From a virus (taxonomy: Duplodnaviria; Heunggongvirae; Uroviricota; Caudoviricetes), in the IMG/VR virus record IMGVR_UViG_3300014691_000062: 19,618 nt of DNA, one strand, 5' to 3'. Made by a program: the position numbers and the translations under genes. Every line of letters starts with the position of its first letter. Position 1 is the stretch's first letter. This document shows, piece by piece, positions 4,117 to 18,250 of this stretch. The notes under the pieces were generated by a model that saw only the letters and a list, made by a program, of their open reading frames with translations, was not told the origin of the DNA and searched no databases.

Positions 4117-4589
4117 ACCTCAATCTCTCTGACCGTTCCGCCTGCTTCTTTGAATTTTGCAATCAGGCTGTCAGCCTTATGCTCGAACTGGCCATAACCA
4201 GCGCCCGGCAGTGAAGCCCAGATATTGCTGCAACGGTCGATAGCCTGACGGATATCACCGCGATCAATCATCGGTAAAGCGCCACGCTCCTTAATCTGCT
4301 GCAGTGCAACAGCGTCCTGGTTTTTCGGAGAGAAGTCTTTCAGGCCAAGCTGCTTGCGGTAGGCATCCCACCAACGGGAAAGAAGCTGGTAACGTCCAGC
4401 TGCGGTTGATTTAAGTTGCGGGTTTAGCGTGACAAGTTTGCGAGGATGATCGGAGTAATCCGTGAATAGCTCACCACCTACAATAACGTCGTAGCCGTGA
4501 TTGCGGGTTGGCTGTCGCCCGTTATCCGTTCCTTCTGACCACGCCAACATATCGAGAAAAGCTTTACGCTGGGAATTTAGTACCTGCAT
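4113..4589 (-). CDS. R: Endolysin, lambda R-type lytic transglycosylase
   Basis: 158 aa, near-identical by recall to lambda R (…QRKAFLDMLAWSEGTDNGRQ…TRNHGYDVIVGGELFTDYSDHPRK…). Confidence 0.9.
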   Translation of the reverse strand: MQVLNSQRKAFLDMLAWSEGTDNGRQPTRNHGYDVIVGGELFTDYSDHPRKLVTLNPQLKSTAAGRYQLLSRWWDAYRKQLGLKDFSPKNQDAVALQQIKERGALPMIDRGDIRQAIDRCSNIWASLPGAGYGQFEHKADSLIAKFKEAGGTVREIEV

Positions 4590-4592
4590 AAA

Positions 4593-4919
4593 TTACTCCT
4601 TAGAGCCACCAAACTTGTTACCGATTACTCGCATTGCAGCCCCACGAATAGCATCGACACCGATCAGCCCCACCCCACCACCAATGGCAACAGATAGTGA
4701 TTTAGGCCATCCGACATACTCAAGCGCGGATGCAAATGTCAGCGTCAGAGCGCCACAGAGTAAAATCTCAAGCGTTTTTCGCTTCCAGCCACCACCACCG
4801 CCAAAATAGGCAATGCGCAAGCCAGCCATAACGATCGACATAATCACTGCGCCCAGTGGTGTGTCTCCACGCCACCAGCTCTGGACCAACTCCAGCCAGG
4901 TATTTGGGTTATGAGGCAT
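4593..4919 (-). CDS. Putative holin (not lambda S-like or S21-like)
   Basis: 108 aa directly upstream of the endolysin; two to three hydrophobic segments, Gly-rich stretches and a charged C-terminus; GAGGTGAG SD upstream of the ATG. Assigned on position and topology only. Confidence 0.55.
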   Translation of the reverse strand: MPHNPNTWLELVQSWWRGDTPLGAVIMSIVMAGLRIAYFGGGGGWKRKTLEILLCGALTLTFASALEYVGWPKSLSVAIGGGVGLIGVDAIRGAAMRVIGNKFGGSKE

Positions 4920-5071
4920 TTGTAGTTATCTCTCACCTCGCTGATACAGCAGGTGCAAATTGAGGGAACATCATGTACAGCAAATTAGAAGCGGAAACGT
5001 CAAAGAAGCCGAACCAATGGATAACTGCGGAATAGACCAGGACCAACGAATCCCCAGCCCCAGAAACGACA

Positions 5072-5093
5072 AAACCCGCTCAACGGCGGGTTT
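5072..5093 (-). terminator. Intrinsic terminator-like hairpin upstream of the holin gene (tR'-like position)
   Basis: Stem aaacccgc/gcgggttt (8 bp); on the minus strand it is followed by a T-rich tract (TTTTGTCGTTTCT). Confidence 0.5.
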
Positions 5094-5209
5094 AAGCTGT
5101 GTGGCGAAGTAACCACTCTTAACAGAGTACTGTATTTTTTGCGTACGCATTAGTATTTTTTGAAGTATTATCAACACCAATTGTTCAAAACCATTAAAAG
5201 GATGTTGTT

Positions 5210-6244
5210 ATGACTGCATCAGCGACCCCCACTAATATCACTCATAAGTTTATTGTTCACATTATGAACAAGGAACAACAGGGGTTAGCCACCATTATTC
5301 CTTGTCCTTCAGAAAAACCTGTTCAGCAAGCATCAAAAGACCTCTCTAACGCACTTACTGAAAGGTACTCTGGGAGAGCAGGTAAAGGATATGGGAAATT
5401 TGAAGATGACCGCGATAGTTACCCTATGGGTAATATCGTTGATGATTATTTCGTAAATAAAACACATAGTTTTTATGATACTAGTATCCGAATGATCAAT
5501 CATTTAAAAGCCAGAGCCGATGATGAATCAATGTCTACTGGTGGTTATGTAATAATTGCCCATAATGAGGTAAATGGAAATCATTATTTGATGGTTGCAA
5601 TCCTAACTTCAGCAGTTGGCTCTTCAGTCCACGATTTTGAAATTCAAGAAAGTGAATATCTAGACATTGCTAAACTTCGAGTAGCGGGACGAATTGACTT
5701 AACTGGGCGCCAGAATGGCAAAGAGAGATATATTAGCTTTCTAAAGGGGCAAAATTCAGTAGCAGGTTATTTCAAAAAGTTTTTAGGTTGCAACGATATT
5801 CTAATTGCCAAACAAGAAACAACAAAATTACGGAATGCACTTTTAGAATTTGCTACTGAAAGAGGTTTTGAACCAGAGGCACGTGAAGAGTTCCTAAATA
5901 AGGCTCATGAAAAATTAAAAAATTTAAATCGTTCTGGTGAAACTTTCGACACTCAAATTTTTGCAAACGAGATATGGCCAACTGCTCCTGAGTTGTTAGT
6001 TGAAAAGTTAACCAATGACGATCTGGAGTTCTCTGATGGGTTCGTGCCTGATGGCAACGTTATACGTGGGCTTGTTAGTTTCAAAGGAAAGTCCAAACAT
6101 TGGTCTCTGAAATTCGAGCGTGCGGCCTTGCATGATGGCAGCGTTCTTTATGATTCAGAAAACGATAAATTGATACTTACCGAGATTCCGGATACGCTAA
6201 GATCAGAGATTTTATCAGAATTAGGTGAAGAGGATGAGCAGTAA
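5210..6244 (+). CDS. YejK/NdpA-like (NA37 family) nucleoid-associated-protein homologue, cargo gene
   Basis: 344 aa; AAGGA SD 7 nt upstream of the ATG. By-eye alignment to E. coli YejK along the length ([22 protein letters not shown] / [38 protein letters not shown]…RYISFLKGQ / YLDINHADIVARIDLT…RYLTFLKGR). AT-rich relative to the phage backbone. Confidence 0.75.
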   Translation: [344 protein letters not shown]

Positions 6245-12661: not shown

Positions 12662-13266
12662 GCGTTAGTTTCTCCACAGTCACGACACGCCACGGCGCCC
12701 GGAGCTGCACACTCGCGGGCGTCATTACTTTCTGAAATGCAAAAGATTTTGTAGACCAGTGCTGCATGCTCCTGCAGCTTCGAAATTGAGAGATACAGCT
12801 CGTCGTTAATTGCTGTCTTCTCATGCGGTTCCACCACACCGTCTTCGATTGCCGAACGAATCTGTCTGGAATAACTGCCAATCTGTTCAATGACTTCCAG
12901 CAGGCGCTGGTTAATATCGGCGTTGTCCACATCCTCGACGTCAGGAAGAGACACAAAGACGCCATTTGCAGACTGCGCCACAGCGTCAGCAATGAAGTGA
13001 GTTCCACCAGCACGTTGCAAAATCATTGCCCATCCCAGCGGGAAAATCTGATCGCCATCGGCACGAAGGCGGTTAAATAATGCGTTTTCTGTTACATCCA
13101 GCCAGTCAGCTGCTTCAGCGTAACCACCCGGCAACGCTGCGATAGTTTTTCTGACAGCTTTCACGTACCACTCAGGCTGTTTTTCTACTTTCCAGTGATG
13201 CTTACCCACGGTTAGCCTCATCGTTCTGTGGTTTCTGTTAATCGATTTATCCATTAGATTTTTCAT
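12658..13266 (-). CDS. Putative CII-like / YdaT-family regulator
   Basis: Long ORF immediately downstream of a YdaS-like cro. The track start at 13323 would overlap cro by 77 nt; plausible ATGs are at 13266, 13254 and 13221. Family assignment is from position and partial recall. Confidence 0.45.
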
Positions 13267-13447
13267 AAAGCTCAGGTTTAAATGGCAACCGTCCGCAAGT
13301 TCTATATGCAGCTTCTGCTGCACGTCCTTTTGGAATTAACTGGCCCGGACGGTTTCGCCACTGATAAACGGCTTCAGTTGTTATGCCGAAAAAAGCAGCA
13401 ACTTTCTCAATACTGCCGAAGTAGCTTTCGATATCGTCAGTTGTCAT
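13247..13447 (-). CDS. cro: Cro-like repressor (YdaS-family HTH)
   Basis: 66 aa, divergent from cI across an operator region; HTH …SIEKVAAFFGITTEAVYQWRN… resembles YdaS/Cro. Confidence 0.75.
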   Translation of the reverse strand: MTTDDIESYFGSIEKVAAFFGITTEAVYQWRNRPGQLIPKGRAAEAAYRTCGRLPFKPELYEKSNG

Positions 13448-13544
13448 ACGCCCTCCAAACTAAGTTTTATTAGATGCTAATTACAAATCTATCTTTGGTC
13501 AATAAAAACTAAGATTACTTAGCAATTCAAGAAATGGTGCTCCT
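13448..13544. promoter_or_regulatory. OR-like region: divergent promoters with two operator palindromes
   Basis: CTAAGttttaTTAG at 13460..13473 and CTAAGattaCTTAG at 13509..13522 between divergent cro and cI. Confidence 0.6.
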
Positions 13545-14171
13545 ATGGAAACGGTTGGTCAGCGTATAAAAGCTCTGAGAAGAGTTACCGGAACGTCCCA
13601 GAAAGAATTGGGTAAATTTTGTGGAGTAAGCGACGTTGCTGTGGGGTACTGGGAGAAAGACATCAATACCCCTGGTGGGGAGGCACTTTCGAAATTAGCG
13701 AAGTTCTTCAATACGTCAATAGATTACATTCTTTATGGTGCTGAGTTTGAAGGCAAACTCGTCACAAACATGCGCAGAGTTCCTGTAATATCGTGGGTTC
13801 AGGCTGGGCAGTTTACTGAATGCAGGGCAGCAGAAGTGTTTAGTGAAGTGGACAAGTGGGTAGATACATCATTAAAGATTGGTGATAACTCATTTGCATT
13901 AGAGGTTAAAGGTGACTCCATGACTAACCCTAATGGCCTCCCAACAATACCAGAAGGCGCAACAGTGATTGTAGATCCAGATGCAGAACCTCGTCATGGA
14001 AAAATAGTCATCGCTCGACTTGATGGAACAAACGAAGCTACAGTAAAAAAATTAGTCATCGATGGCCCTCAAAAGTTTTTAGTGCCATTAAATCCTCGGT
14101 ATCCCAACATCCCTATCAATGGTAATTGCCTTATCATTGGTGTAGTCAAAGGAGTTCAATACGAACTCTAA
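13545..14171 (+). CDS. cI: CI-type prophage repressor (HTH plus S24 LexA-like autopeptidase domain)
   Basis: 208 aa; HTH …GTSQKELGKFCGVSDVAVGYWEKD…; S24 motifs GDSM and …ATVKKL…; overall similarity to P22 C2 / lambda CI by recall. Confidence 0.9.
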   Translation: METVGQRIKALRRVTGTSQKELGKFCGVSDVAVGYWEKDINTPGGEALSKLAKFFNTSIDYILYGAEFEGKLVTNMRRVPVISWVQAGQFTECRAAEVFSEVDKWVDTSLKIGDNSFALEVKGDSMTNPNGLPTIPEGATVIVDPDAEPRHGKIVIARLDGTNEATVKKLVIDGPQKFLVPLNPRYPNIPINGNCLIIGVVKGVQYEL

Positions 14172-14184
14172 GACCTCTCTTCTC

Positions 14185-14255
14185 TAACTAAGGCACCGAA
14201 CTAAGAAAAGTTTGGTGTTTTTTCTTGCCATAATAACTAAGTTAAGTTAGATTTT
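14185..14255 (+). promoter_or_regulatory. OL/PL-like region: operator repeats and a candidate sigma70 promoter
   Basis: CTAAG…CTAAG at 14188..14205 and CTAAGttaagTTAG at 14237..14250; TTGCCA (14225..14230), 17-nt spacer, TAGATT (14248..14253). Confidence 0.5.
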
Positions 14256-14361
14256 ATATCAAAGATAACGAACAGGCAGGACGCCCACGAAGTAGCCGCC
14301 TGGGGCATATAAAGTCTAGGGTGATTCGTTAGCAACAAAAAAGCGCCCTACAGGACGCTTA

Positions 14362-14374
14362 GCTCTTTAACAAT
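14362..14374 (+). promoter_or_regulatory. boxA-like element (rrn-type GCTCTTTAACAAT) in the early-left leader
   Basis: 13/13 identity with the E. coli rrn boxA core as I recall it; about 110 nt downstream of the putative PL and 45 nt upstream of the first early-left ORF. Confidence 0.45.
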
Positions 14375-14418
14375 CTGGTCCCCATCAACAAGTAACTGAT
14401 AACTTGAGGAGGTGTGAA

Positions 14419-14625
14419 ATGCACAAAACAGAACCCAAAATCGTCGCGCCCGGATACACAAATGAGGAAATTTACGAGTGGATGGCAAAGAAGCTGGCAG
14501 CTATAAACCAGCTTCGTGAAGTGCTGTCTTATCGACAGGAAACAATAGACTCCTTAAAAAAACTGGATCAGGAAATCACGGTTTTATCACAGGATGTTAC
14601 TTTAGATATTGTGCAGACAAATTAG
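14419..14625 (+). CDS. Small hypothetical protein in the position normally held by N
   Basis: 68 aa from the ATG at 14419 with GGAGGTG SD (track start 14404 is TTG). No arginine-rich motif, so not N-like. AT-rich. Confidence 0.5.
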   Translation: MHKTEPKIVAPGYTNEEIYEWMAKKLAAINQLREVLSYRQETIDSLKKLDQEITVLSQDVTLDIVQTN

Positions 14626-15031
14626 GATCCCATTCATTTTCGTCAAAATCATCAAAGTGATGAATTTGTGATCTCCAGTCTCGATAATCTAAAAATTTCT
14701 GGGCGGTTACGCTTATTTTATCAAGTGTGAGTTCATCCTGAATTGAAAGAAGAAGTTCATCAAATTTCATCTCATTAATCTGTTTTGGCATCCAGTGATG
14801 CTTCATCAGAATAAGGTGAACCAGAGCCTTTTTCCCATTCAACTGATTATAGGGAGTGCCGAATTTCTTCCGGTGCTCATGTAAGACAAGGTCCAGAAGA
14901 GTAAGTAATGTTGCCCTTGATTCCACTTTGCTTATTTCGACTGATGACACTACCCCACTGATTTCAATGCCCCGATACTTTCCAACATTTTCACAGTGGG
15001 ATTTGTACAGCGTGTAGATATTACCGGACAT
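14597..15031 (-). CDS. Hypothetical protein, convergent with and overlapping the preceding ORF
   Basis: 144 aa, ATG with AGGA-type SD; acidic C-terminus (…HHFDDFDENEWDPN…); AT-rich; antisense to the early-left operon. Confidence 0.55.
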   Translation of the reverse strand: MSGNIYTLYKSHCENVGKYRGIEISGVVSSVEISKVESRATLLTLLDLVLHEHRKKFGTPYNQLNGKKALVHLILMKHHWMPKQINEMKFDELLLSIQDELTLDKISVTAQKFLDYRDWRSQIHHFDDFDENEWDPNLSAQYLK

Positions 15032-15046
15032 TTCTTTTCCTTTTGC

Positions 15047-15098
15047 GTTGTTGGGGATAACCAGATTAACCGAATCCTTGTTGTTGGGGAATAACCAG
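15047..15098. repeat. Direct repeat GTTGTTGGGGATAACCAG / GTTGTTGGGGAATAACCAG upstream of the 14597..15031 gene
   Basis: Two copies (15047..15064, 15080..15098) differing by one inserted A; on the minus strand they read TTATCCCCA, one mismatch from a DnaA-box consensus. Confidence 0.5.
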
Positions 15099-15104
15099 GT
15101 CCAC

Positions 15105-15545
15105 CTCGCCTGATGTGGCTAAAAGCAGGCACATAACAGCTAAGTATTTTTAACCAGAGAGAATCCTTAGCGTTGTGGTGAATGCGGCTCAGCGCACGCG
15201 GGTTAAGGTTGAGGCTGACAGTCGACCTTCTGTGGATACCCACCCGTCTGGTGTGCAACCTTCGCCAGGCACCGGGAGGCACCCGGCACCACAACTTTAT
15301 GCTGTGTGTAGTCCTGGAGGTACCAGTTTGTACCCTTGCTTCCGGCTGGTACCGTCCTTTTTACAAAACAGAGAAGAGCATCACCGGACGACGGGCTCAT
15401 AACCCAATCCATCCGGGCGGCTGCCACCGCAGGTGTTCTTCTCTGTTTTGTGGAGAAACTAACCGCCCCTACGGGGGCATTCATGGAAATGTAATTGACT
15501 CAATAATCGCCGGACGGTGAGGGCTTCCTTTTACCCGAATTCAGC
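15105..15545. other. GC-rich, ORF-poor, self-complementary segment (candidate structured RNA or decayed remnant)
   Basis: Only short ORFs with R/P/G-rich nonsense translations in several frames; nested inverted repeats (ggtaccag…ctggtacc 15320..15353; aacagagaaga…tcttctctgtt ~15367..15446; gcccctacgggggc ~15465..15478). Confidence 0.35.
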
Positions 15546-15575
15546 GCGGTGCAGCGCATATACGTGGAGAACAAA

Positions 15576-16112
15576 ATGTCATTTATTAAAACTTTTTCCG
15601 GGAAGCATTTTTATTATGACAGGATAAATAAAGACGACATCGTTATTAACGATATCGCGGTTTCCCTTTCAAATATCTGTCGCTTTGCAGGACATCTTTC
15701 ACACTTCTACAGTGTCGCCCAACATGCGGTGCTTTGCAGCCAGCTGGTGCCGCAGGAATTTGCTTTTGAAGCTTTAATGCATGATGCAACAGAAGCATAT
15801 TGCCAGGACATCCCCGCACCACTGAAACGACTTCTTCCTGACTATAAACGTATGGAAGAAAAAATAGACGCCGTAATCCGTGAGAAATACGGGTTACCTC
15901 CTGTTATGAGCACGCCAGTGAAATATGCCGATCTCATTATGCTGGCAACCGAACGCCGCGATCTCGGGCTTGATGATGGCTCTTTCTGGCCTGTACTGGA
16001 AGGTATCACGGCAACAGAGATGTTCAAAGTGATTCCACAGGCACCGGGCCATGCCTACGGGATGTTTATGGAACGTTTTAACGAGTTATCGGAGTTACGC
16101 AAATGCGCATGA
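15576..16112 (+). CDS. HD-domain phosphohydrolase
   Basis: H…H and HD motifs (…RFAGHLSHFYSVAQHA…LMHDATEAY…); ATG at 15576 with GGAGA SD (track start 15549 is GTG). Confidence 0.75.
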   Translation: MSFIKTFSGKHFYYDRINKDDIVINDIAVSLSNICRFAGHLSHFYSVAQHAVLCSQLVPQEFAFEALMHDATEAYCQDIPAPLKRLLPDYKRMEEKIDAVIREKYGLPPVMSTPVKYADLIMLATERRDLGLDDGSFWPVLEGITATEMFKVIPQAPGHAYGMFMERFNELSELRKCA

Positions 16113-18160: not shown

Positions 18161-18250
18161 CTTATTGATTTTAATGGTGCCGATAATAGGAGTCGAACCT
18201 ACGACCTTCGCATTACGAATGCGCTGCTCTACCAACTGAGCTATATCGGC
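18161..18250. other. Putative attL (core expected to overlap the 3' part of thrW)
   Basis: Junction between the int stop and the tRNA; P22-type integrases are known to target the 3' end of thrW. Exact core boundaries cannot be set without attR or attB. Confidence 0.45.
18175..18250 (-). tRNA. thrW: tRNA-Thr (anticodon CGU)
   Basis: 76-nt minus-strand sequence GCCGATATAGCTCAGTTGGTAGAGCAGCGCATTCGTAATGCGAAGGTCGTAGGTTCGACTCCTATTATCGGCACCA: cloverleaf, CGT anticodon, encoded CCA end. Confidence 0.95.

What the first reader, a model, noticed from the sequence alone, without database searches (positions are those of the whole stretch)
15047..15098. Tandem 18-bp direct repeat with a DnaA-box-like core in front of the minus-strand 144-aa gene
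GTTGTTGGGGATAACCAG occurs twice, 33 bp apart (the second copy has one extra A), 16 to 70 bp upstream of the start codon at 15031. On the coding strand the core reads TTATCCCCA, one mismatch from the DnaA box TTATCCACA. Repeated sites at that spacing suggest a dimeric regulator binding site, or host DnaA control of this lysogen-expressed gene.
Basis: seen in the sequence. Interest (0 to 1): 0.4.

Follow-up and report, generated by a model that had tools for sequence, protein, structure and literature searches.

The report
Conserved sieB-type promoter/antisense-RNA repeat
The repeat is real but is not a DnaA site: it is this prophage's copy of a block that in phages P22 and lambda holds the promoter of the exclusion gene sieB on one strand and the antisense RNA sas on the other, here attached to a different gene of unknown function.

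Summary
GTTGTTGGGGATAACCAG lies at 15047-15064 and GTTGTTGGGGAATAACCAG at 15080-15098, upstream of the minus-strand 144-aa gene.

The window is a SfII/SfIV-like lambdoid prophage at thrW. The repeat sits in the "sieB slot" of the early-left (PL) operon and aligns with the P22/lambda sieB promoter. There the equivalent motif, CCCCTACAG, also occurs twice, 34 bp apart.

By that homology:
- The -10 hexamer is TAATCT (15068-15063, minus strand), between the two copies.
- The upstream copy covers the -35 region.
- The downstream copy is the first ~10 nt of the mRNA.

On the plus (PL) strand the same block matches the sequenced P22 sas antisense RNA. It contains an anti-start-codon/anti-SD segment with copy B. 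Copy C follows as a covarying hairpin with a GGGG tetraloop. After that comes a covarying H-type pseudoknot.

The two copies change together between phage lineages, and the hairpin copy is complementary to the mRNA 5' end and SD.

The DnaA reading fails. TTATCCCCA misses the TTWTNCACA consensus, the extra A breaks the second copy, and the TTAT part is not conserved in homologues.

This is a new member of a known regulatory block, carrying an ECs1072-family gene instead of sieB.

The parts
14597..15031 (-). Cargo gene: 144-aa ECs1072-family phage-associated protein of unknown function. It occupies the slot that sieB occupies in lambda/P22.
   Evidence: ORF. NCBIfam NF033230 scores 157.8 bits against a cut-off of 70. 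PHROG 5286, unknown function. No Pfam or PADLOC hit. Annotated 'ECs1072 family' in E. coli genomes.
15032..15057 (-). Predicted 5' leader of the cargo mRNA: AUCCCCAACAACGCAAAAGGAAAAGAA, with SD AAGGA at 15042-15038. The transcription start is predicted near 15056-15058.
   Evidence: Inferred by alignment to the P22 sieB RNA start annotated at 29727. The leader is essentially unstructured, -1.6 kcal/mol. No experimental start exists for this sequence.
15047..15064 (.). Repeat copy B (proximal). On the minus strand it spans the end of the -10 hexamer to about +10 of the mRNA. On the plus strand it is the part of the sas-like RNA that is antisense to the mRNA 5' end.
15063..15068 (-). Predicted -10 hexamer TAATCT of the sieB-type promoter, lying between the two copies.
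   Evidence: It aligns with the P22 promoter feature, which ends in TAAACT. In alignment A1 the three positions corresponding to -12 T, -11 A and -7 T are each kept in 31 of 32 sequences, while the positions in between vary.
15080..15098 (.). Repeat copy C (distal). On the minus strand it covers about -24 to -42, and the -35 hexamer would be TTCCCC at 15091-15086. On the plus strand it forms most of hairpin 2.
15076..15099 (+). Hairpin 2 of the sas-like RNA: CCU-u-GUUGUU-GGGG-AAUAAC-c-AGG, with a GGGG tetraloop.
   Evidence: Predicted at -7.2 kcal/mol on the plus strand against -2.2 on the minus strand. Class A homologues average -8.2 against -2.9, with the plus strand more stable in 18 of 18. 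RNAalifold predicts it. Pair counting gives 8 of 10 pairs with compensatory changes and 89% of cells paired, against 31-41% for the whole structure when partners are slid.
15101..15130 (+). H-type pseudoknot. S1 is CCAC (15101-15104) with GUGG (15115-15118). S2 is GCCUG (15108-15112) with CAGGC (15126-15130). Loop 3 is the A-rich CUAAAAG.
   Evidence: 24 of 27 distinct variants, collected without constraining this region, keep both stems. Examples are CACGC/GCGUG, CGCGC/GCGCG, ACCGC/GCGGU, GCCGG/CCGGC and GCCCGG/CCGGGC, plus G.U variants. Only 2.9% of shuffles do so. No Rfam family matches.
15027..15150 (+). Inferred sas-like antisense RNA carried on the PL transcript. It contains anti-start-codon, anti-SD and copy B, then hairpin 2 (copy C), then the pseudoknot.
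   Evidence: The 127-nt P22 sas RNA sequenced in PMC13397905 maps to P22 29636-29762 on the minus strand. It aligns with this stretch. The RNA ends in the window are inferred, not observed.
14341..14360 (-). Intrinsic terminator of the minus-strand cargo transcription unit: AAGCGUCC-UGUA-GGGCGCUU followed by UUUUGUUG.
   Evidence: It is shared with PhiR29, which carries a different cargo gene.
14372..14392 (.). Third copy of the repeat in inverted orientation (AATCTGGTCCCCATCAACAAG on the plus strand). Its role is unexplained.
   Evidence: I4, I7. In PhiR29 the left and right copies both carry GGATATCC. It is absent from lambda and P22.

Best explanation
The two copies belong to a conserved two-strand regulatory block of lambdoid phages. 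In P22 and lambda this block controls sieB.

Minus strand. The block is the promoter and leader of the gene in the 'sieB slot', here an ECs1072-family gene expressed from the prophage. The -10 hexamer (TAATCT) lies between the copies. The distal copy overlies the weak -35 region. The proximal copy is the first ~10 nt of the mRNA, followed by the SD and AUG.

Plus strand. The early-left (PL) transcript reads this strand once the prophage repressor is gone. Here the block is the homologue of the sas antisense RNA. Its 5' part is antisense to the start codon, the SD and the mRNA 5' end (copy B). Copy C then folds into a hairpin with a GGGG tetraloop. An H-type pseudoknot follows.

Copy C and its TCCTT flank repeat copy B and its anti-SD. 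The hairpin unit is therefore a second sequence complementary to the mRNA 5' end and SD.

Proposed action: during lytic growth or infection the sas-like RNA pairs with the leader and shuts off translation of the cargo protein, as sas does for SieB. Convergent PL transcription also interferes with the promoter.

Shown: the homology, the position, the conserved -10, the covarying hairpin and pseudoknot, and the concerted change of the two copies.
Inferred: the transcription start, production of the RNA in this prophage, translational repression, and the role of the second copy.
For: Context. The window is a SfII/SfIV-like prophage with int and tRNA-Thr at its end. cI is at 13545-14171. AACTAAG operators and a PL-like promoter lie at 14186-14253. 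The cargo gene lies opposite to PL.

Homology. BLAST of 15036-15145 finds the same block upstream of annotated sieB genes in ev207 (77.8% identity, E 5e-5) and Pocitis76 (86%). It also finds it upstream of other genes in PhiR29, Kp4882-1 and F1055.

P22 annotation. P22 RefSeq annotates the sieB promoter at 29690-29720, the RNA start at 29727 and the CDS at 29758. P22 and lambda carry CCCCTACAG twice, 34 bp apart, at the -35 region and at +2. The window aligns column for column.

Conserved -10. TA...T between the copies is kept at each of the three positions in 31 of 32 sequences. The alternative TAnnnT (mostly TATNCT) next to the pseudoknot is present in 38 of 52 single-hairpin blocks and in 0 of 37 two-copy blocks.

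sas. The sequenced P22 sas RNA (PMC13397905) maps to 29636-29762 and covers both copies plus the pseudoknot.

Hairpin 2. 8 of 10 pairs covary and it is stable only on the plus strand in class A.

Pseudoknot. 24 of 27 variants keep both stems, against 2.9% of shuffles.

Concerted change of the copies. The motif is GTTGTTGGGGA x2, CTGTAGGGGT x2, TTGACTGTGGAA x2 or TTGTGGGGG x2. Mean within-genome identity is 9.66 of 12, against 8.12 +/- 0.25 when copies are permuted.

Complementarity. The leader pairs with the hairpin-2 unit at -23.8 kcal/mol (window) and -25.9 (P22). Shuffles give -7.5 +/- 2.6 and -10.0 +/- 2.9, with 0 of 500 as good.

Portability. Two-copy blocks precede at least 10 unrelated protein families.
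Against: - No transcript data exist for this prophage. The start site and the antisense RNA are inferred from P22.
- The cargo is not sieB, so sas-type control may not have been retained.
- Folds of the window sequence alone are not better than shuffles. All structural support is comparative.
- The comparative sets were collected with sequence patterns and contain related sequences, so the shuffle controls overstate independence.
- The proximal copy has no conserved hairpin geometry.
- Likeness of the copies could also come from repeated duplication, or from a DNA-level constraint such as protein binding at -35 and +1.
- The original P22 papers (Ranade and Poteete 1993) could not be read. The -10 mutation result is from my memory of the abstract.
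Confidence: 0.62

Rival explanations
1. The copies are operators for a DNA-binding protein, host or phage. It binds two direct repeats three helical turns apart, at -35 and at +1, and represses or activates the promoter of the 144-aa gene.
For: - Direct repeats 33-35 bp apart bracket the -10 in every two-copy block.
- The -35 is poor (TTCCCC; TACCCC in P22), which would suit an activator.
- The copies change together between lineages, as expected if each lineage had its own protein.
Against: - No candidate protein tracks the motif class. Class A occurs with at least two immunity regions (window versus SfIV/PhiR29) and with several cargo families. One cargo family occurs with classes A, B and E.
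- A single host factor would not be expected to accept GTTGTTGGGGA, CTGTAGGGGT and TTGACTGTGGAA alike.
- The distal copy's variation obeys RNA pairing rules, with many G.U pairs on the plus strand only.
- Single-hairpin relatives manage with one copy.
Confidence: 0.12
2. The repeat is the leftover of a tandem duplication of about 33 bp of promoter and leader. The duplication moved the promoter closer to the gene. The repetition itself has no function: the distal copy is kept only because it is hairpin 2, and the proximal only because it is the leader.
For: - The repeat unit includes the anti-SD TCCTT and part of the -10 position (ACCTGG versus ATCTGG).
- Single-hairpin blocks have a TGGTATNCT extended -10 beside the pseudoknot, which all 37 two-copy blocks have lost. 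That fits a promoter relocation by duplication.
Against: After divergence of classes A, B and C, whose spacers are still alignable, independent drift should have made the copies different. Instead they share the lineage-specific substitutions, and the complementarity to the leader extends to the SD. This origin is compatible with the best explanation. Only the 'no function' part is in competition with it.
Confidence: 0.18
3. Host DnaA binds the TTATCCCCA cores and controls the 144-aa gene.
For: There is one 9-mer with a single mismatch to TTATCCACA at 15052-15060. Near-boxes with up to 1 mismatch are more frequent in the window than in shuffles, 13 against 4.4. Some homologues have a perfect TTATCCACA formed by the pseudoknot arm (GTGGATAAAAG; for example Pocitis76).
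Against: - The mismatch is at a defining position (A7 of TTWTNCACA; established consensus, from my own knowledge).
- The second copy is disrupted by the extra A.
- None of the 13 near-boxes fits TTWTNCACA (read off the list).
- The TTAT part is not conserved among homologous blocks, and lambda and P22 have CACCCCTAC / CAACCCCTAC instead.
Confidence: 0.03
4. The copies are leftward operators (OL) of the prophage's own CI repressor.
For: They lie to the right of cI, in the direction of the early-left operon.
Against: The cI-cro intergenic region and the region just after cI carry a different repeated motif, AACTAAG. Five of the six copies in the window lie at 13458-13513 and 14186-14241, next to a PL-like promoter at 14225-14253. 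The GGGG motif is absent from the cI-cro region. The same GGGG block also occurs with other immunity types.
Confidence: 0.02

Closest known systems
P22 sieB promoter and sas antisense RNA (Ranade and Poteete 1993; P22 RefSeq NC_002371 features; sas sequenced in PMC13397905)
   Same: - Same place in the early-left operon, on the strand opposite to PL.
- Alignable sequence.
- Tandem motif 33-34 bp apart at the -35 region and at +1.
- A -10 between the copies.
- A GGGG-loop hairpin followed by the CCAC/GUGG and GCCUG/CAGGC element on the PL strand.
   Different: - The motif is GTTGTTGGGGA(A)T instead of CTGTAGGGGT.
- The gene behind it is an ECs1072-family protein, not SieB.
- The SieB/Esc two-product switch is therefore not expected.
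- No N gene precedes it in this prophage.
- Nothing is known experimentally for this variant.
Lambda sieB promoter region (34,400-34,481) and the Rac prophage sieB upstream region of E. coli K-12
   Same: The block has the same architecture. In Rac an annotated sRNA (kilS) follows the block, just as an STnc100-like element follows it in the window.
   Different: In Rac the proximal copy is degenerate (TGTAAGGG) and the pseudoknot stems are changed in a compensatory way (GCCCGG/CCGGGC). The cargo is sieB in both.
Cis-antisense RNA control with loop-mediated recognition (P22 sar/ant, lambda OOP/cII, R1 CopA/CopT)
   Same: A short structured RNA from the opposite strand covers the ribosome-binding region of its target. 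A hairpin loop is complementary to the target.
   Different: Here the RNA appears to be cut out of a long operon transcript rather than made from its own promoter. It also carries a second, non-overlapping copy of the anti-leader sequence. The kissing-type mechanism is my inference.
DnaA box (TTWTNCACA)
   Same: 8 of 9 letters match in one copy.
   Different: It fails at a defining position, is not repeated intact, and is not conserved in homologues.
Prophage 'morons' (autonomous promoter-gene-terminator units inside phage operons)
   Same: The unit has its own promoter and terminator, is antisense to the surrounding operon, is expressed from the prophage, and its cargo is swapped between phages.
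   Different: The control block, not just the slot, is conserved across at least 10 cargo families. It also encodes an RNA on the other strand.

Membership tests
sieB-promoter / sas block of lambdoid phages | Lies in the early-left operon downstream of the repressor gene, driving a gene on the strand opposite to PL | tested here: met
   cI is at 13545-14171 (+). A PL-like promoter lies at 14225-14253 (+). The cargo gene is at 14597-15031 (-). yfdR, xis and int follow on the + strand.
sieB-promoter / sas block of lambdoid phages | Sequence homology to the P22/lambda block | tested here: met
   blastn matches blocks upstream of annotated sieB genes: ev207 at 77.8% (E 5e-5) and Pocitis76 at 86%. 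Five-way alignment A2 has 69% mean column identity.
sieB-promoter / sas block of lambdoid phages | -10 hexamer at the position of the P22 promoter, between the two motif copies | tested here: met
   TAATCT at 15068-15063. Each of the three TA...T positions is kept in 31 of 32 aligned blocks.
sieB-promoter / sas block of lambdoid phages | Transcription start just before the proximal CCCC (P22: 29727) | not testable with these tools
   Only predicted by alignment. This needs 5' RACE or dRNA-seq.
sieB-promoter / sas block of lambdoid phages | The controlled gene is sieB (Pfam PF14163) | tested here: not met
   The 144-aa protein has no Pfam hit and belongs to NF033230 (ECs1072 family). This is why I file it as the same block with a different cargo.
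sieB-promoter / sas block of lambdoid phages | A stable antisense RNA is made from the PL strand and represses translation of the cargo | not testable with these tools
   The homologous P22 RNA has been sequenced. The structural elements are conserved and covary. No expression data exist for this prophage.
DnaA box | 9-mer fitting TTWTNCACA | tested here: not met
   TTATCCCCA has C at position 7. The second copy reads TTATTCCCC. None of the 13 near-matches in the window fits the consensus.
DnaA box | Box positions conserved in homologous control regions | tested here: not met
   The TTAT part varies or is absent, while CCCC(A/T)ACA is conserved.
DnaA box | DnaA binding | not testable with these tools
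   Needs EMSA or footprinting.
CI operator (OL/OR) of this prophage | Same motif as in the cI-cro intergenic region | tested here: not met
   The operators are AACTAAG-type at 13458-13513 and 14186-14241. The GGGG motif is not found there.
H-type RNA pseudoknot (for 15101-15130) | Two interleaved helices, each supported by compensatory changes | tested here: met
   There are 21 distinct stem combinations. 24 of 27 variants keep both stems, against 2.9% of shuffles. The three-dimensional fold is not testable here.
Any Rfam family | Covariance-model match over 15027-15140 | tested here: not met
   Nothing at gathering score. At E up to 5 there are only chance-level hits there: Afu_309 at 11.4 bits, and ftsZ-DE (18.3 bits, E 1.4) on the minus strand touching the edge at 15140.

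The most novel reading that the evidence does not exclude
The sas-type block may be a general, portable self-immunity device of lambdoid phages. It would consist of a conserved RNA scaffold (GGGG-loop hairpin plus A-rich H-type pseudoknot, with no Rfam family) joined to a variable anti-leader segment.

The tandem repeat would exist because the scaffold hairpin must stay complementary to the 5' end and SD of whatever mRNA the block controls. That would give the antisense RNA two recognition sites.

If so, the ten or more unrelated genes found behind the block, including the ECs1072 family, would be prophage-expressed exclusion or abortive-infection toxins. The phage would silence them by RNA during its own lytic growth.
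Probability: 0.3. Interest if true: 0.6.

Novelty: new member of a known kind. Interest (0 to 1): 0.35.

Why it matters
The repeat itself is an ordinary, widespread piece of lambdoid phage regulation. The cassette is found at least in part in 1123 of 5426 complete E. coli genomes.

Recognising it has three uses:
- It replaces a DnaA speculation with a testable promoter and antisense model taken from P22.
- It marks the uncharacterised ECs1072-family gene, and the other genes behind the same block, as candidates for prophage-encoded exclusion or abortive-infection functions that need to be switched off by the phage's own early transcript.
- It shows that sas has a conserved hairpin-plus-pseudoknot architecture that is not in Rfam and could be used to annotate this element in prophages.

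Tried and rejected
- CI operator. Rejected: the operators are AACTAAG-type.
- Terminal inverted repeats of a mobile or invertible cassette, suggested by the inverted copy at 14372-14392. Not supported: the inverted copy is limited to one left-junction module (window, SfIV, Kati, PhiR29) and is absent from lambda, P22 and most IMG/VR loci. No recombinase is nearby.
- nutL. An rrn-boxA-like GCTCTTTAACAA lies at 14362-14373, but no boxB hairpin follows and no N gene is present. Left as an aside.
- NarL heptamer (TACCCCT in P22/lambda), sigma-32 (-10 CCCCATNT) and CsrA (GGA in loops). Each fits only one motif class or conflicts with the mapped P22 start. Rejected by inspection.
- Single-sequence folding of the window block. 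Not better than shuffles, so only comparative evidence was used.
- A conserved hairpin around the proximal copy. None with fixed geometry.
- The original P22 papers and the P22 genome paper are not held.
- Two literature searches returned irrelevant papers. Searches added nothing on lambda sieB transcription.
- PADLOC, Pfam and PDB sequence searches gave no function for the 144-aa protein.

Full report
**1. The observation**

One search shows GTTGTTGGGGATAACCAG at 15047-15064 and GTTGTTGGGGAATAACCAG at 15080-15098, 33 bp start to start. The second copy has one extra A. The minus-strand 144-aa ORF (14597-15031) starts 16 bp from the near copy.

The repeat is longer than reported. With a 4-nt gap it runs from TCCTT through CCAG(A/G)T (15038-15066 and 15075-15100). 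A 17-mer with up to three mismatches is expected 0.03 times in the window. TTATCCCCA is on the minus strand at 15052-15060.

**2. Context**

The window is one end of a SfII/SfIV-like lambdoid prophage.
- tRNA-Thr lies at 18175-18250 next to int.
- Shigella phage SfIV matches 14300-15900 at 98.5% identity, apart from 1.3 kb (yfdP/yfdQ) that the window lacks, as SfII does.
- cI is at 13545-14171 (+) and cro at 13247-13447 (-).
- The motif AACTAAG clusters in the cI-cro gap and just after cI (five of the six copies in the window). It sits beside a PL-like promoter at 14225-14253.

The early-left transcript therefore runs on the plus strand, through a 68-aa ORF (14419-14625), then antisense through the 144-aa gene, then through the repeat and on to yfdR, xis and int.

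The 144-aa gene has its own minus-strand terminator at 14360-14341. It is a unit transcribed against the operon. Its product belongs to the ECs1072 family (NF033230; PHROG 5286) and has no known function.

**3. Homology**

A sensitive BLAST of 15036-15145 finds the block, starting exactly at copy B, in many phages.
- With a different gene: PhiR29 (PHROG 1244), Klebsiella Kp4882-1 and Salmonella F1055.
- As a CTGTAGGGGT x2 variant upstream of annotated sieB genes: ev207 and Hafnia phage Pocitis76.

Lambda and P22 have the same arrangement. P22's RefSeq record annotates the sieB promoter at 29690-29720 (TGTACCCCTACAGCGAGAAATCGGATAAACT). It puts the sieB RNA start at 29727 and the CDS at 29758.

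In P22 one CCCCTACAG lies in the -35 region and the other begins one base after the start site. The -10 lies between them. The window aligns to this column for column:

GTTATTCCCCAACAACAAGGATTCGGTTAATCTGGTTATCCCCAACAACGCAAAAGGAAAAGAAATG

This gives a -10 of TAATCT (15068-15063), a predicted start near 15056-15058 and a 26-nt leader with SD AAGGA.

In an alignment of 32 distinct two-copy blocks (A1), each of the three positions equivalent to -12 T, -11 A and -7 T is kept in 31 of 32 sequences. The bases between them vary: TAATCT, TAAACT, TAAAAT, TATAAT, TATATT, TACGTT.

From memory of the abstract of Ranade and Poteete (J Bacteriol 1993), the P22 start was mapped by RNase protection and a two-base change in the -10 inactivated the promoter. 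I could not read that paper.

**4. The other strand**

A 2026 small-RNA study lists the sequenced P22 sas RNA, 127 nt (PMC13397905). It maps to P22 29636-29762 on the PL strand. It begins at the complement of the sieB start codon and runs through both motif copies, the following CCACC...GTGG element and AAAAGACAGGCAC. The conserved block is therefore the sas RNA, and 15027-15150 (+) is its homologue here.

Sas is the antisense RNA that, in P22, blocks SieB translation during the phage's own growth (summarised in PMC12197685).

**5. Comparative structure**

A scan of IMG/VR for the CCACC...GTGG element gave about 90 distinct blocks.
- 37 have two copies of a motif 32-35 bp apart. The motif comes in four forms: GTTGTTGGGGA (window type), CTGTAGGGGT (lambda/P22), TTGACTGTGGAA and TTGTGGGGG.
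- 52 do not have the tandem motif. Most of these have a single hairpin.

*Hairpin 2.* The distal copy is always the 5' arm and loop of a hairpin placed 0-3 nt before the CCACC element. In the window it is CCU-u-GUUGUU-GGGG-AAUAAC-c-AGG (15076-15099). In P22 it is UUCUCG-c-UGUA-GGGG-UACA-CGAGAA.

RNAalifold predicts it. Pair counting shows 8 of 10 pairs with changes on both sides. 89% of cells in this helix are paired, against 31-41% for the whole structure when partners are slid. Many pairs are G.U, so in the window-type class the hairpin is stable only on the plus strand. The mean is -8.2 against -2.9 kcal/mol, with the plus strand more stable in 18 of 18. This is the signature of an RNA read in the PL direction.

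*Pseudoknot.* The element after the hairpin is best read as an H-type pseudoknot. In the window S1 is CCAC/GUGG, S2 is GCCUG/CAGGC and loop 3 is the A-rich CUAAAAG (15101-15130).

Blocks collected through the hairpin motif alone, plus the Rac prophage of K-12, give 21 different stem combinations. 24 of 27 variants keep both stems, against 2.9% of shuffles. Rfam has no family there.

**6. Why two copies**

The copies share lineage-specific substitutions. The base pair closing the GGGG loop is U..A in both copies of the window type, A..U in both of the lambda type and G..C/U in the fourth type. The third type has replaced the whole motif in both copies.

The spacers of the classes are still alignable. 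The duplication is therefore old and the copies have changed together.

The repeat unit also includes the anti-SD (TCCTT). As a result the hairpin-2 unit can pair with both the 5' end and the SD of the leader. The energies are -23.8 kcal/mol in the window and -25.9 in P22. Shuffles give -7.5 and -10.0, with none of 500 as good.

Single-hairpin relatives, including SfII and SfV, have the gene's start codon immediately beside the hairpin. On the minus strand 38 of 52 of them have a TAnnnT hexamer, mostly TATNCT within GGTGGTATNCT, an extended -10 built on the pseudoknot arm. None of the 37 two-copy blocks has it.

My reading is as follows. An ancestral promoter and leader were duplicated in tandem, moving the promoter towards the gene. 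The old leader survived as the scaffold hairpin of the antisense RNA. Selection has kept it matched to the new leader, perhaps as a second recognition site. This last step is inference.

**7. Rivals**

*DnaA.* The core fails the TTWTNCACA consensus. The second copy is disrupted by the extra A. No site in the window fits the consensus (read off the list). The TTAT part is not conserved in homologues.

*CI operator.* The motif is different.

*A dedicated DNA-binding regulator.* Nothing tracks the motif class. Class A occurs with at least two immunity types. Two-copy blocks precede at least 10 unrelated protein families, and one family occurs with three motif classes.

*A functionless duplication relic.* This remains possible for the repetition as such.

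**8. Verdict**

The repeat is real and functional-looking, and belongs to a known kind of element. It is the sieB-type promoter on one strand and the sas-type antisense RNA on the other. Here it serves an ECs1072-family gene.

It is common: part of the cassette occurs in 1123 of 5426 complete E. coli genomes, and at least 80% of it in 410.

What is new is modest. The block is portable across cargo genes. It has a covarying GGGG hairpin and pseudoknot that are not in Rfam. The tandem copies evolve in concert. All functional statements for this prophage rest on homology and comparative analysis, and no transcript data were available.

Noticed in passing
window 15142-15364 (+): An STnc100/PasD-like sRNA element lies directly after the sas-like block. 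It matches Rfam RF02076 at 38.4 bits (E 2e-6), below the gathering score of 47. In K-12 Rac the same relative position holds the annotated sRNA kilS, which shares UGCUGUGUGUAGUCCUGG and a terminator with the window's 15300-15364. A 2026 preprint links STnc100 and PasD as one family.
   Followed up: partly
window 15101-15130 (+): A conserved H-type pseudoknot with an A-rich third loop lies here. It is found in well over 100 IMG/VR phage contigs and has compensatory changes in both stems. It has no Rfam family. In some phages (L036, L055, L101) it lies right after PL or the PL leader with no cargo gene in between.
   Followed up: yes
window 14372-14392: A third, inverted copy of the repeat (AATCTGGTCCCCATCAACAAG) sits next to the minus-strand terminator at 14341-14360. 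In PhiR29 the left and right copies both read GGATATCC. It could pair with copies B and C in the PL transcript, or with the mRNA's own 5' end. Its role is unexplained.
   Followed up: partly
window 14362-14373 (+): GCTCTTTAACAA is an exact match to the core of the rrn-type boxA, and it lies downstream of the PL-like promoter. It is expected 0.1 times at up to 1 mismatch. No boxB-like hairpin follows, and no N-like gene is evident between PL and the cargo unit.
   Followed up: no
window 14271-14330 (+): The leader of the PL transcript (AACAGGCAGGACGCCCACGAAGTAGCCGCCTGGGGCATA...) is conserved in SfII, SfV, PhiR29 and IMG/VR locus L101, whatever the immunity region upstream. In L101 it abuts the pseudoknot directly. 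The stretch 14331-15100 therefore behaves as an inserted cassette.
   Followed up: partly
window about 15465, compared with L001 (SfIV) 4560-5580: The window and SfII lack about 1.3 kb carrying yfdP (the 120-aa form) and yfdQ (DUF2303), which SfIV, SfV and PhiR29 have. The long ORFs annotated over 15182-15520 in some records overlap the STnc100-like RNA region and are probably not genes.
   Followed up: partly
window 15363-15451: A 25-nt inverted repeat with 84% complementary arms and a 39-nt gap (ACAAAACAGAGAAGAGCATCACCGG / CCGCAGGTGTTCTTCTCTGTTTTGT) lies after the STnc100-like element. It may be a further structured RNA.
   Followed up: no
window 13458-13513 and 14186-14241: AACTAAG repeats flank cI on both sides. 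They are the likely OR and OL operators of this prophage's repressor, with a PL-like promoter at 14225-14253.
   Followed up: partly
whole window: Near-DnaA boxes (TTATCCACA with up to 1 mismatch) number 13, against 4.4 expected from shuffles. Four lie on the minus strand within 15052-15457. None fits TTWTNCACA. This is possibly a compositional effect.
   Followed up: no
window 14419-14625 (+) and 14597-15031 (-): The 68-aa ORF (PHROG 1744, good SD) and the 144-aa gene converge and overlap by 29 nt at their 3' ends. F1055 has a similar pair of a small plus-strand ORF and a minus-strand cargo gene.
   Followed up: no
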